A stretch of DNA of 63,812 nt, counting the filler, from Octopus bimaculoides (taxonomy: Eukaryota), in the NCBI RefSeq assembly GCF_001194135.2. It is 5 parts of 5 records of this genome, joined end to end, with 100 filler letters (N's around TTAATTAATTAA, not from the genome) between each part and the next. Parts side by side here need not be neighbours in the genome. Positions count along the whole stretch, not along the records: positions 1 to 14,771 come from NC_069004.1; positions 14,872 to 27,534 come from NC_068981.1; 3 more parts are not named here. One strand, written 5' to 3'. The notes below the pieces were generated by a model. It ran no database searches. It was not told the origin of the DNA and was given only the letters and a program-made list of their open reading frames with translations. This document shows positions 1,470 to 25,670 of this stretch, piece after piece. The translations under genes were made by a program, and so were the position numbers. Numbering within the stretch: position 1 is the first letter of the stretch; every line of letters begins with the position of its first letter.

Positions 1470-1994
1470 TATATTTGCCACTTAAATGTGACTGACCCCG
1501 AGGGGTGGATGTTACTGTTGCTTTTAGCCCCAGGAGAACATCTCCAGCTGGCTATCGATACACATCTGTGCCCTGTCTGTATTTGCCAAGGGAAGTTATC
1601 TTTCCCATCTTGATCTACGATACGTACGTACCCGAGTTTCAGGGTTATTTCCCTTCTTCAGCGTACGACAATCGCCGACCTTCGATGCAAAAGACATCCC
1701 TTGGCAAATATATGTAACTTTCTCCAGTGAAATTATTCACTGATATCGATTGCTTGTTTTCACTTTTTCGATATCAGTGAATAATTTCACTGGAGAAAGT
1801 TACATATATTTGCCAAGGGATGTCTTTTGCATTGTACGTATCGTAGATCAAGATGGGAAAGATAACTTCCCTTGGCAAATACAGACAGGGCACAGATGTG
1901 TGTCGATAGCCAGCTGGAGGAGATGTCCTCCTGGGGCTAAAAGCAACAGTAACATCCACCCCTCGGGGTCAGCCACATTTAAGTGGCAAATATA
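1470..1994. mobile_element. 525-bp palindromic (foldback/MITE-like) element
   Basis: Near-perfect inverted arms (near-identical ORFs appear on both strands), 18-nt central loop, TA flanks. The left arm carries an extra 57 nt containing the hammerhead. Confidence 0.85.
1624..1666 (-). ncRNA. Minimal type I hammerhead ribozyme motif
   Basis: Minus strand reads GTACG-CTGAAGA-AGGG(AAATAA)CCCT-GAAAC-TCGG-GTA^-CGTAC. It has a complete catalytic core, 5-bp stem I, 4-bp stem II and a minimal, quasi-palindromic stem III. Confidence 0.8.
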
Positions 1995-2125
1995 TATATT
2001 TCATTTTCATTTAATCTAGTTTCAGCTGTATTGTATTGTTGTTACTCGATTAGCGAAACAATTATGAGAACGGAACCAAGGGATAAGAGCCCACTTTCCT
2101 GGGAATTAGCGGGTATGTCAGCTAC

Positions 2126-2185
<60 letters not shown>

Positions 2186-2289
2186 CATATATATATATAC
2201 ACATATATATATATATATACACATATATATATATATACAACCAACTTTCTGAGCTTCCATGTTGGTAGGAAAGAAAAAAAAAAGAAAAG

Positions 2290-2550
2290 GAGGTGGGTGG
2301 TCACCAACCTTAACAAAGAGCCAACATGAAAATTTGCATTAAACTTGGGAAGTCTGCTACAGGGACATTGAGCAAGCTTATGGTGGCTTGGCAATGGGTG
2401 CTTCAAAAGTGGAAGAATGTCAAGAGCATCACCTCTGGAAATGTGGTATTGTGCCTTGAGAATTCATTCCCCAGGGTCAGACCATCAATTGAGAGTTCAA
2501 CTGCATTTGAGGGAAGACATTTGGTGGCTCATGCAGCTATACGTTAACCA
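2290..2550 (+). mobile_element. Internally deleted mariner transposase relic
   Basis: [18 protein letters not shown] (mariner N-terminus) is joined to GIVP*EFIPQGQTIN (catalytic region). Confidence 0.6.
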
Positions 2551-3928
2551 ATCAGGTGTGTGAAAATTTGGCTACTGTGTCTAATAGGTCAAGATATCAC
2601 CTAGGAACAGTTGCGGGCAAACTGTGGGCTGTGGAAGACAAAATTACCTTGATTCTTTTACTAGTGAGGCCCACTTGATGATGAGCCATGTCTTATGTAG
2701 CCAGCTTCTTGAAAAAGGCTCATACCTACTCTATCACATCATCAAAATCTCAAAGCTATGAGACAAGACATGATTCTTTCAAAACAATGGGAATAAATAA
2801 TTCAAATGCCAAAGGGAGAAGGGAAATTTGCTTACTATTACTAGCATGACTAGCTAGTAATAGGAACCATGCCTGATGTGGAGGATGCATCTCTGGTTCA
2901 TACAAACATAAATCTTTAACACATAATTTATAATTTGGTTACTGTTTCCAACAAGTCAGTCTAACATTACATCATTTACAGATTTGACTGTTATTTTTAG
3001 CACATTATTCTAACATAGAGATCTCCAGTGTTGGCTCATATATACTTGACAGAAGCCATCATTTAAGGGAGATTTGGTTGCTATTTCTAGCATTTCTGGT
3101 TACAATGCTGAGGACTACCTCATTGGCAGTTAACGTTATAGTTTTTGTTGCCATTATTGTATTTGAGAGACTCTCCATTGGCAGTTTCCAATTCCAAGTT
3201 GTTGATAAAGCTTACACTTATTTTGTACTTTTCATCTTTTATTTGTTTCGGTCATTGGACGATGGCCATGCTGGGGCACTGCCTTGGAAGGTTTAGTTAA
3301 ACAAATCAATGCCAGAACTTCTTGCTTTAAAGTCTGGCACTTATTCTAGGAGCCTCTTTTGCAGACCTACTAAGTTAGGGGGATGTAAACAAGCCAACAC
3401 TGGCTATCAAGCAGTTGTACGGTTACAAATACAAAGACACACATGGATAAATATATATATGTGACAGGCTTCTTTCAGTTTCCATTAACCAAATCCACTT
3501 GCCAAAAGTGCCCTGTAGTGGGACTGAATCTGGAAGCAAGCTTTTCAACCACACAGCCATGCCTTGTGGTTGTGAATATGCATGGCCTAGTGGTTAGGGT
3601 ATTGAGCAATCATAAAACTGTTGCTTCAATTCCTGGGACCTGGCAGTATGTTGCTGCCTTGAGCAAGGCACTTCATTTCAGGTTGCTTCAGTTTACTCAG
3701 GTGAAAAAAAAAAAGTACCAGCCTACTGCTGGAGCAGTCCTTTCCCCCTCCAGCTGTTATAATCCTAATGTTAGGATGTGACCCTTAGGTTAAGAGGTGG
3801 GAGGGCCAATAAAGTATCTATGTCTATTCATAACTATACAGACACCTAAAATAAAGAGTGATATGAAAGGATGGGATATGCTTGCAGATAACAACCATTT
3901 GCAAATGGTGGTCATGGTATGGATTTGT

Positions 3929-3959
<31 letters not shown>

Positions 3960-23128: not shown

Positions 23129-23352
23129 AATGTACATACATATATACATACATAATACATACATATATACATACATAATACATGCATACATACATACACA
23201 CATACATGCATGCATACATACATAATACATATATGCATACATAGAGCCTAAACAAATTTTAGTAAGTTATACATAGTATAGCATAACCTCGTGGTGGTTG
23301 AATGCCAACAATATTTACGCCAAAGCAGGTCACAGATTGTTGTCAACTGCTT

Positions 23353-23928
23353 TTACGACTCATAATCTTTTTTATTTATATTTTCACGATCGATAATCCG
23401 CGCACATACACAAGCTGAGGCGACATTAATTTTACTGGGCTTATATACATAGAACCCGTCAACACATGCTCCTGTACGAATAAGAACAGGCATTTCAGTA
23501 TATACTGTCACACAGTGGTAGTTGTTGTCAGTGCCTAGACAATTTTTACAGCGACACACAGCTTCAGTACGTAGTGGAGGGTAAACGTTTTTGTCATAGA
23601 TAACTTTCAGGTACCAAGGACACGTGGAACGCCTGCGGGCAGCTCTGGAATGAACAATAGACGTTGGGCAAGTTTTATCCAAGTCCAGCATTGGTAATTT
23701 TGTTGTCGCATGTGAAGCTATTTTAGCTGTGAAGATAAACTTATTGCGTAACCTGGAATGACTCTTATGTCGGACGTCCAATCTGACTGGTATTCTACAT
23801 TGTCTCCGATATGATGCCGAAGATACAAATATGATGACGCTGAAGAAGCAGTTCAAATACGGAATACAGACCTGTACAACAGAAAATATTTTTGTCAAGT
23901 GGTGTGATGTATTTTCAATATGACACAT
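23353..23928 (-). CDS. IL17: Interleukin-17-like secreted cystine-knot cytokine (paralog 2). Probable main coding exon 23871-23353.
   Basis: ORF with a signal-like stretch (VCIPYLNCFFSVIIFVSSAS) and RSTCPW...YDKNVYP..RTEAVCRCKNC...HCVTVY...VLIRTGACVDGFYVYKP..INVASACVC. All cysteines align with paralog 1. Phase-0 acceptor ttttctgttgtacag|GTC. Confidence 0.92.
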   Translation of the reverse strand: MCHIENTSHHLTKIFSVVQVCIPYLNCFFSVIIFVSSASYRRQCRIPVRLDVRHKSHSRLRNKFIFTAKIASHATTKLPMLDLDKTCPTSIVHSRAARRRSTCPWYLKVIYDKNVYPPLRTEAVCRCKNCLGTDNNYHCVTVYTEMPVLIRTGACVDGFYVYKPSKINVASACVCARIIDRENINKKDYES

Positions 23929-24691
23929 TTATCGACGTAAAAATACAAGAATAATCTTACTTCATTTGAAATATTTATAAAAGTTATTTTACATTTAAGA
24001 GAAATTATGCTGTAAACTACTTGAAGAGTGATAAGAAATACCAGAATTCTATGCACATGCGTGTGCGCTGATTCTTGATTTAAAAGGAAACCATGCGGAA
24101 GCTTATCACACACTCCGTATAGACTACACTTCGTAGTGCTCAAAAGATTTAAATCTGAGCCGGTAAACGATGAAAGGAGGTGGAAGGGGGATGGAAGGAG
24201 ATGGGAGAGGAAGCAAACTGTATATCGGCTTGACTATCTTGATCTTGCTTGTCCTTACATTTATATATAATATATATGTATGAGATGGAGGTGGAAAAAA
24301 GCACAGAAGTAAGTCCAAGACATTTCAATTTTAGAAGGAATTTAATGAAAATGATTTTAAAAATTATATAAAGAAAATATTGCTGGTTTCGATGATGAAT
24401 CTTTTCTTATCAAATAACGCTAAAAATTTTCTAAAGATTTAAAGTAAAACAGTTCATCTTCTGTCTGGGAGTCNNNNNNNNNNGCTCAATAAACACTCAC
24501 AACGCCCGGTCTGGGAATCGAAACCGCTATCCTGTGACCGCGAGTCCTCTGCCCTAACCACTGGGCCATTGCGCCTCCTGTACATAGTATACAACACTAA
24601 TAAAAAAAAACAAAGGGAGTGAATGACAAAACTTAAAATAAAATCCTAACAAAAACACTAGAATACAAATTATCGTCCAAAATGTTTGTAT

Positions 24692-24723
<32 letters not shown>

Positions 24724-25240
24724 AAGCGTGCGAATATAGGTACGTAGGCGGGTTTGTTTATTTTAAAAGTAATGTCTGTTATTGGTGTCAGATTACCATG
24801 TAATTTGTATGGCTTTATATGTATGTACATGTGTGTGTAAATGTGTGTGTGTGTGTGTGTGTATGTGTGTGTGTGTGTGTGTGTATGCTTACCGTAATAT
24901 TAATACAGGCATCAGGTTTTTGATATGTTTACCCATGTAGGTCATTGGGTGCAATGGTAAGTAACACTGATAGTCTTTCTTTATCCTCCTCCTCTTCTTC
25001 CCCCCTTCTTCACCCTCTCTTCATTATCTTCATCGTCATCACCATTATCATCGTCAGAGTCGTTTTGGTCGTCATATTTGATGGAACTCAGACAAATTAA
25101 ATGGTTACGTACAATTTACTACTTCACCTTCTCCCCACGATTTTAATACTATAAATCTTCTCGTCTACTGTACCCTGTAACCTATATATATATATATATA
25201 TGTATGTATTAGAAGGTTTGGAGGTGATGTACAGGTATTA

Positions 25241-25670
25241 TATATTAGAAAAAATAAGGTACCCAGAGATCTGGATGGTTGTACATTTACAGATCTTTAT
25301 TAATATGTCACGTTTTTTATAAATCATATGTAAGCGCTTGCATCTACTCTAGTAGATTCTTCAGAATTAAATTTTTTGAAGGGATTCGTCTCTTTTTTTT
25401 ATAGTATTATTGAGTGTGTAGGGATGGAGAGAGATCTCTCTCCTTCCCTACGCACTCAATAATACTATAAAAAGAGATCTCTCTCCATCCCTAAAAACTC
25501 AATAATACTATAAAAAGAGACGAATCCCCTCAAAAAATTTAAATCTGAAGAATCTACTAGAGTAGATGCTAGCGCTAAGATATGAATTATAAAAAACATG
25601 TGACATATTAATTAAAAATTGTAAATGTATAACCATCCAGATTTCTGAGCACCTTATTTTTTCTAATATA
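25241..25670. mobile_element. 430-bp palindromic element with a rearranged centre
   Basis: tatattagaaaaaataagg... and ...ccttattttttctaatata are inverted arms, flanked by (TA)n, with an internal duplication at the centre. Confidence 0.8.

What the first reader, a model, noticed from the sequence alone, without database searches (positions are those of the whole stretch)
1470..25670. Possible class of palindromic ribozyme-bearing elements: three unrelated foldbacks share one architecture
The palindromes at 1470-1994, 9133-9966 and 25241-25670 show no obvious sequence similarity to one another. Yet each places a CTGAAGA core followed by a stem II hairpin on the strand that reads outward toward the element end, and each has TA-rich flanks. 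Recurrence within 25 kb suggests that inverted pLTR dimers are a common non-autonomous form here and could be misannotated as DNA-transposon MITEs. I cannot tell from the sequence whether this has been described.
Basis: inference. Interest (0 to 1): 0.75.

Follow-up and report, generated by a model that had tools for sequence, protein, structure and literature searches.

The report
Fold-back Penelope and retrozyme insertions
The three hairpin-shaped stretches are real, but they are head-to-head end pieces of three different Penelope-type jumping elements, joined at a different point in every copy and so likely rebuilt at each insertion rather than moving as hairpins; the layout is already described, and the less ordinary part is that a protein-less ribozyme repeat lands with the same signature, which points to its likely helper enzyme.

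Summary
The three foldbacks exist, are unrelated in sequence, and their hammerhead strands read outward. They are not a class of mobile palindromes. E2 is the cut-off 3' end of a Hydra-type Penelope-like element (PLE). E3 is the 3' end of a Neptune-type PLE. E1 comes from a 351-nt ORF-less tandem unit (non-LTR retrozyme). In genome samples 12/40, 9/20 and 15/20 copies carry an inverted upstream piece, and the centre differs from copy to copy. Each family has two 3' ends 31-65 nt apart. Foldbacks carry one of each in 36 of 37 readable unselected cases (four families). The tail-less arm often reaches further 5', so neither arm is a copy of the other. Best model: both target strands prime cDNA on one RNA and the two 5'-truncated ends are joined. 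Corrections: E3 lies on another chromosome; E1 has a hammerhead on one arm only; E3's core is mutated. Inverted pLTR plus one-sided tail is published (Arkhipova 2013, Craig 2021). The scan found this layout before, here and in other genomes. Not found in what I read: the near-strict one-tail count and the PLE signature on a retrozyme.

The parts
1405..1418 (+). E1 left copy of a 14-nt target-site duplication (partly TA repeat)
   Evidence: same 14 nt at 1990-2003
1417..1749 (-). E1 left arm: 333 nt of the 351-nt family-1 unit (positions 231 through 351/1 to 215), long end
   Evidence: 93% to the unit cut from L028
1417..1458 (-). E1 tail (unit positions 174-215), absent from the right arm
   Evidence: family copies end at unit position 173 or 217
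1623..1667 (-). E1 type I hammerhead: 6-bp stem I, CUGAAGA at 1661, 4-bp stem II, GAAA, short self-complementary stem III; predicted cut between 1629 and 1628
   Evidence: descriptor match; 175 exact cores in G000, 0 reversed controls; cutting not tested
1749..1994 (+). E1 right arm: unit positions 212-295 and 3-162, hammerhead segment missing, short end
1990..2003 (+). E1 right copy of the target-site duplication
9083..9285 (-). E2 left arm: 3' end of a Hydra-type PLE with tail (about 9083-9132) and type I hammerhead (core at 9226)
   Evidence: parent ORF with RT and endonuclease motifs ends about 490 nt upstream of the same 3' end in L183
9297..9594 (.). E2 centre: short inverted and direct pieces of the parent's 3' UTR, microsatellites and a 10-N gap (9571-9580)
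9595..9966 (+). E2 right arm: parent 3' UTR and decayed hammerhead (core at 9873), short end into (TA)n
25208..25434 (-). E3 left arm: 3' end of a Neptune-type PLE with 31-nt tail (25208-25238) and minimal hammerhead-like motif (core at 25364, GCAA in place of GAAA)
   Evidence: GIY-YIG (PF01541, E=2.7e-5) about 1 kb upstream of the same end in L072
25435..25672 (+). E3 right arm with a 43-nt duplication at the centre (25435-25477), core at 25545 (GCTA), short end into (TA)n

Best explanation
Each foldback is one insertion of the hammerhead-bearing 3' end of a Penelope-type RNA (two protein-coding PLEs and one ORF-less 351-nt retrozyme), laid head to head, and likely made when the PLE enzyme cuts both strands of a TA-rich target and primes two cDNAs on one RNA. 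Inferred steps: one cDNA starts at the upstream ('short') site and the other at the downstream ('long') site 31-65 nt further 3'. Both stop early, and their free ends are joined through a few nt of microhomology or a short filler. This gives an outward-reading palindrome with a tail on one arm, a variable centre and a 12-15 nt target duplication. [quoted passage not shown] The palindrome is the product of integration, not the unit that moves. Shown: family membership, orientation, variable centres, two end sites, one-tail pairing, duplications. Inferred: double priming on one RNA, the joining step, and that a PLE enzyme moves the retrozyme.
For: Parents: E2's end follows an ORF with RT-like motifs and a C-terminal endonuclease with a CxCX5C linker (L183; also L033, L129). 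E3's end follows a GIY-YIG domain with a CX4CxxC linker (L066, L072, L137, L153). E1's family is a 351-nt head-to-tail unit with copies up to 665 nt. Frequency, first loci in coordinate order of exact-core searches: inverted upstream piece in 12 of 40, 9 of 20, 15 of 20 and 17 of 26 in a fourth family. Orientation: 26 of 26 close core pairs outward, p=1.5e-8. One short plus one long end: 36 of 37 readable unselected foldbacks, p=2.8e-10; 37 of 41 among all readable family 1-3 foldbacks. The tail-less arm reaches further 5' in 30, the tailed arm in 11, tied in 12 of 53 (hand count). In L221 the tailed arm is the tail alone. Family-1 arms differ by 2.2% against 4.7% between loci, 14 of 14. Duplications of 12-15 nt at 10 of 17 family-4 foldbacks and at E1, L007, L094. 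In vitro a PLE protein cuts and extends both strands, starts at two sites that bound the tail, and needs no active hammerhead (PMC11167929).
Against: Four exceptions to the one-tail rule in families 1-3 (L058 and L105 long-long, L013 short-short, L046 ambiguous). In 11 foldbacks the tailed arm reaches further 5', which a trailing second enzyme does not predict. Four family-3 centres sit on a mini-palindrome at the hammerhead's 5' edge, as self-priming would give. Arm similarity is uninformative in the old families (8 of 14, 8 of 11) and could reflect later conversion in family 1. The in vitro paper saw no difference in start site between strands. No helper PLE was identified for family 1. Clades were assigned by motif, not by tree; Pfam gave no hit on the L183 ORF. 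Many flanks are N, so fractions are lower bounds and 16 unselected foldbacks were dropped as unreadable.
Confidence: 0.68

Rival explanations
1. Self-priming hairpin: one strand (cDNA or antisense RNA) folds back at a short palindrome and is copied, and the endonuclease then cuts the hairpin stem with a stagger that leaves the tail on one strand before integration.
For: Proposed in print (self-priming, PMC3846280; endonuclease resolution of the tail, PMC8557442). Explains shared template, head-to-head order and one tail. Family-3 5' ends pile up within 6 nt of the hammerhead start in 7 of 20 copies (p=3e-4), at a small palindrome.
Against: Plain copy-back needs one arm to be a subset of the other; in 30 of 53 cases the tail-less arm has extra 5' sequence while the other has the tail. 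A fixed stagger predicts one polarity; both occur (30 vs 11). Tail-only or near-tail-only arms (L221, L206, L115) leave no stem to cut. Many centres hold fillers or non-palindromic joints.
Confidence: 0.22
2. One reading: non-autonomous palindromic pLTR dimers that transpose as units, MITE-like.
For: Foldbacks are 30-75% of sampled copies, have defined ends and target duplications.
Against: No two of 21 family-1 foldbacks share a centre. The window palindromes match themselves at 100% only once; other family-2 and -3 hits cover one arm. Most family-1 and -2 copies are single-armed. Ends are asymmetric (tail), unlike terminal inverted repeats.
Confidence: 0.04
3. Two independent insertions into the same TA tract, or later inverted duplication or assembly artefact.
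For: TA tracts are insertion hot spots and do hold neighbouring copies (L077, L116, L195). The assembly has many gaps next to these repeats.
Against: Independent insertions give no 26:0 orientation bias, no one-tail rule and no single duplication around both arms. Arms differ by 2-12%, so they are not collapsed reads.
Confidence: 0.06

Closest known systems
Inverted-pLTR insertions of endonuclease-bearing Penelope-like elements with a one-sided tail (Arkhipova et al. 2013, PMC3846280; Craig et al. 2021, PMC8557442; passages read)
   Same: Head-to-head inverted 5'-truncated copy, 30-40 bp tail at one end, (TA)n targets, hammerhead in the pLTR.
   Different: Here both copies are so truncated that only a 0.2-1.5 kb palindrome remains. 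Tails are 44, about 65, 31 and about 28 nt. The one-tail pairing is counted here (36 of 37).
[quoted passage not shown]
   Same: Type I motifs with short, self-complementary stem III; that paper already notes pairs 100-700 bp apart on opposite strands.
   Different: Family 3 has GCAA for GAAA in 52 of 99 exact-pattern copies (hand count), so a core-mutated lineage spread.
Metazoan non-LTR retrozymes (Cervera and de la Pena 2020, PMC7229834, passages; Li et al. 2026, 10.64898/2026.07.22.740005, parts 1 and 3 of 5)
   Same: ORF-less tandem unit of about 350 nt with one type I hammerhead, low GC, dispersed monomers and short tandems.
   Different: Those texts name PLEs as the likely helper from co-occurrence and pLTR similarity; 'inverted' occurs 0 times in the first and once, in a reference title, in the second. 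Family 1 shows the PLE integration signature itself.
PAc Poseidon element in vitro (Frangieh et al. 2024, PMC11167929; main text read)
   Same: Two reverse-transcription start sites bounding the tail, both target strands cut and extended, AT-rich targets, hammerhead dispensable.
   Different: That paper does not discuss inverted insertions; the link to foldbacks is my inference.
MITEs and Tc1/mariner elements
   Same: Short, inverted-repeat-bounded, TA-flanked appearance.
   Different: No fixed terminal repeat, 12-15 nt duplication instead of TA (recalled), single-armed and tandem copies, RT parents. True transposase remnants lie at 32854-33427 (PF01359) and have no hammerhead.

Membership tests
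Endonuclease-bearing PLE insertion (E2, E3) | 3' end linked to an ORF with RT and C-terminal GIY-YIG endonuclease | tested here: met
   E3: PF01541 and RVT_1 pieces. E2: L183 ORF by motif, no Pfam hit. No full-length intact copy recovered.
Endonuclease-bearing PLE insertion (E2, E3) | 5' truncation, inverted head-to-head copy, optional tail | tested here: met
Endonuclease-bearing PLE insertion (E2, E3) | Type I hammerhead near the 3' end | tested here: inconclusive
   Met for E2 left arm. E3 copies have a mutated core and weak stem I; 42 of 99 family copies keep GAAA.
Hydra clade (parent of E2) | CxCX5C linker, no CCHH, CxxC and CxH beside the conserved E and N, (TA)n targets | tested here: met
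   Motifs read in the L183 ORF against the definition
Hydra clade (parent of E2) | RT phylogeny; N-terminal RWK and DKT motifs | not tested
   ORF piece lacks the N-terminus; no reference set fetched
Neptune clade (parent of E3) | CX2-5CxxC linker before a C-terminal GIY-YIG with CCHH | tested here: met
   L192, L072; Nematis not excluded by tree
Non-LTR retrozyme (E1) | Short ORF-less tandem unit with one type I hammerhead per unit | tested here: met
   351-nt period, L028 and L115; PLE protein hits in 3 of 68 loci, none contiguous
Non-LTR retrozyme (E1) | Expressed as small circular RNA | tested here: inconclusive
   Reads of relatives cross the unit joint (68, 55, 42 reads), but genomic tandems give the same joint
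Non-LTR retrozyme (E1) | Self-cleavage | not testable with these tools
   No read-start pile-up at the predicted cut; needs an in vitro assay
MITE / DNA transposon | Fixed symmetric terminal inverted repeats, moves as a unit | tested here: not met
   Asymmetric ends, unique centres, single-armed copies
MITE / DNA transposon | Superfamily-type duplication and cognate transposase | tested here: not met
   12-15 nt duplications; the linked ORFs are RT/endonuclease

The most novel reading that the evidence does not exclude
Penelope foldbacks are the genomic fossil of twin priming: a dimeric enzyme uses the two start sites that bound the tail, one per target strand, on a single RNA, with the second enzyme trailing the first. 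The rule holds across Hydra, Neptune and a third PLE family. An ORF-less hammerhead retrozyme obeys it too, which would be direct genomic evidence that PLE enzymes move animal retrozymes, read round a circular or multimeric template.
Probability: 0.5. Interest if true: 0.55.

Novelty: new member of a known kind. Interest (0 to 1): 0.3.

Why it matters
For annotation: hammerhead-bearing palindromes in PLE-rich genomes are retroelement stumps and should not be filed as MITEs. For mechanism: how PLEs form inverted ends is stated as open (PMC8557442). The one-tail rule and the arm-length data give a prediction that the existing in vitro system can test. The same signature on a retrozyme bears on the open question of which enzyme moves animal retrozymes. 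Frequent foldbacks could also be a source of long double-stranded RNA if transcribed (inference, not tested).

Tried and rejected
Rfam scan: no hammerhead family at E<=1; the matches were almost all miRNA models on hairpins and microsatellites, rejected as shape matches. Minimum-energy folds did not give the hammerhead fold for any of six motifs; the E1 motif folds into a stable alternative (z=-3.9), the others are not significant. This is expected for short stem III motifs and was not used either way. Run search: no RNA holder listed on record. Three raw RNA runs (about 6% of each read) gave 591, 548 and 417 reads on one family-1 unit, mostly 90-95% alike, both strands about equal, depth lowest over the hammerhead, no start pile-up at the cut; library strandedness unknown, so nothing was concluded on cutting or circles. 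A>G and T>C differences in those reads cannot be called editing without matched DNA. Search for a helper PLE beside family-1 copies found none. Automatic end-calling scored six family-2 foldbacks as long-long; four were alignment overrun into (TA)n when read by eye, one was ambiguous and one was real. Target duplications were unreadable at most TA-flanked loci, including E2 and E3. The idea that all window palindromes carry a hammerhead was rejected: 15837-16099 has none and is single-copy. Paper searches for twin priming with Penelope (2 unrelated listings) and head-to-head with target-primed reverse transcription and tail found nothing; the MITE misclassification search (6 listings) was not read further.
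Full report
Setting. The window is a pack of five stretches (joints at 14772, 27535, 57541, 61781) from a 2.34-Gb genome, G000. E1 maps to C24:230259, E2 to C24:237900 and E3 to C1:25270959, so only E1 and E2 are neighbours.

Observation. Self-BLAST finds the three foldbacks and three other long inverted structures. The three share no sequence. Their five CTGAAGA cores read outward. A full type I descriptor matches 1661(-) and 9226(-) only, against 0.08 expected per resampled window (2 of 100 resamples reached 2). 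E1's right arm lacks the hammerhead. E3 has GCAA and GCTA in place of GAAA. Rfam lists no hammerhead.

Family 1 (E1). A natural tandem in L028 gives a 351-nt unit. The exact core occurs 175 times, the reversed control 0 times. Copies are 5'-truncated, run up to 665 nt (beyond one unit), and mostly end at unit position 173 or 217 into (TA)n. PLE protein hits occur in 3 of 68 loci, none contiguous with the repeat. This fits a non-LTR retrozyme as defined in PMC7229834 (passages).

Family 2 (E2). 105 exact cores. Longer copies extend about 1 kb upstream into an endonuclease C-terminus (L033, L129). L183 holds a 545-aa frame with RT-like motifs and the endonuclease, followed by the same 3' end at 80% identity. 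Its linker and flanking cysteine motifs match the Hydra clade definition (PMC8557442 section 11). Pfam gave no hit and no tree was built.

Family 3 (E3). 99 pattern matches; by hand 42 keep GAAA, 52 read GCAA, 5 other. Copies L066, L072, L137 and L153 link this end to a GIY-YIG domain (PF01541) with a Neptune-type zinc-finger linker; L190 adds RT sequence. A core-mutated lineage therefore spread, in line with the in vitro report that hammerhead mutants insert normally.

How common, which way round. I took the first loci in coordinate order from the exact-core lists: 40 loci from 175 matches, 20 from 105 and 20 from 99. An inverted piece lies upstream of the sense copy in 12 of 40, 9 of 20 and 15 of 20. 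One family-1 locus has a tail-to-tail neighbour 950 nt away (L077). A fourth hammerhead family from the window (42910; 899 exact cores) gave 17 of 26. Among listed matches (first 100 per search), close opposite-strand core pairs point outward 5, 0, 5 and 16 times and inward never. N gaps make these lower bounds.

Not a mobile unit. All 21 distinct family-1 foldbacks examined have different centres. Of these 21 joints, 11 overlap by 1-11 nt, 7 are flush or hold a filler of up to 9 nt, and 3 have gaps of 121-518 nt. Family-4 foldbacks are framed by one 12-15 nt duplication at 10 of 17 loci, and E1 by a 14-nt one, so both arms arrive in one event.

One-tail rule. Each family has a short and a long 3' end, 44, about 65, 31 and about 28 nt apart. 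Read by eye, unselected foldbacks with both ends readable pair short with long in 5 of 6, 8 of 8, 9 of 9 and 14 of 14, together 36 of 37 (p=2.8e-10 against 0.5). Dropped as unreadable (N, or inverted piece not reaching an end): 6, 1, 6 and 3. With the similarity-ranked loci, families 1-3 give 37 of 41; family-2 top hits were biased to one long end by the query. All three window elements obey the rule.

Mechanism. A finished arm copied back on itself must contain the other arm. Instead the tail-less arm reaches further 5' in 30 cases, the tailed arm in 11, with 12 ties (hand count of 53; one search tested 29 of 40, p=0.003; the need for a core in one arm may add a small bias). In L221 the tailed arm is the tail alone. 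Family-1 arms are closer to each other than to other loci in 14 of 14, pointing to one template. Frangieh 2024 (main text) shows a PLE protein cutting and extending both strands and starting at two sites that bound the tail, with a predicted dimer; it does not discuss inverted insertions. Twin priming on one RNA joins these facts and is my best inference (0.68). A self-primed hairpin resolved by staggered cuts remains possible (0.22), helped by the family-3 pile-up at a mini-palindrome (7 of 20 within 6 nt) and hurt by the mixed polarity.

RNA. Relatives of family 1 appear in three raw RNA runs on both strands, with reads across the unit joint and no pile-up at the predicted cut. This shows neither circles nor cutting.

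What is known. Inverted pLTR, head-to-head order and one-sided tail: PMC3846280 (passages), PMC8557442 (passages and one section), PMC8969392 (passages). Opposite-strand hammerhead pairs 100-700 bp apart: PMC4209133 (parts 1-2 of 4). PLEs as likely retrozyme helpers: PMC7229834 and the 2026 preprint (parts 1 and 3 of 5 and passages). Eight searches did not show the one-tail count, a twin-priming model for PLE foldbacks, or the signature on a retrozyme. Evgen'ev and Arkhipova 2005, Pyatkov 2004 and all supplements were not read, so this is weak evidence of absence. Earlier scan notes reached the same main reading in this and other genomes.

Verdict. Real feature, known layout, new family members. 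The proposed class does not exist as a unit of transposition. Interest 0.3; the mechanistic reading has probability 0.5 and would merit 0.55.

Noticed in passing
window 42750-42990; L194-L223: Fourth hammerhead family (899 exact cores). A tRNA-like segment lies 130-200 nt upstream of the core in 18 of 26 loci (ARAGORN calls no tRNA in the window), and RT remains lie further upstream in L212: a PLE with a tRNA-like piece in its 3' region. It also follows the one-tail rule.
   Followed up: partly
tails of families 1-4 (window 1417-1458, 9083-9132, 25208-25238; L211): All four tails hold AAT(A/T)CCT, within 2 nt of the short end in families 2-4 and about 17 nt into the tail in family 1; seen by eye, chance not tested. 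Possible recognition signal.
   Followed up: no
window 15837-16099: 263-nt palindrome, 95% perfect, no hammerhead core, single hit in the genome search; origin unexplained.
   Followed up: partly
window 32854-33427: Mariner-type remnant with about 99-nt terminal inverted repeats and a transposase piece (PF01359, E=6.7e-12).
   Followed up: yes
window 25711-27255: Element with about 160-nt inverted ends and decayed frames with Tc1-like motifs (motif identity recalled), directly beside E3.
   Followed up: partly
window 9043-9086: Perfect 44-nt palindrome centred on a TA run, touching E2's tail end, which stops about 12 nt short of the usual long end; perhaps an inverted copy of target DNA.
   Followed up: no
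L116:1394-1750: Most RNA reads come from a sister of family 1 that shares about 60% of the unit, has a 353-nt period and diverges over the hammerhead region.
   Followed up: no
L195: A family-4 foldback sits inside the hammerhead of a family-2 copy with a 12-nt duplication.
   Followed up: no
window 42296-42568: RT fragment 34% identical to the family-3 parent protein.
   Followed up: no
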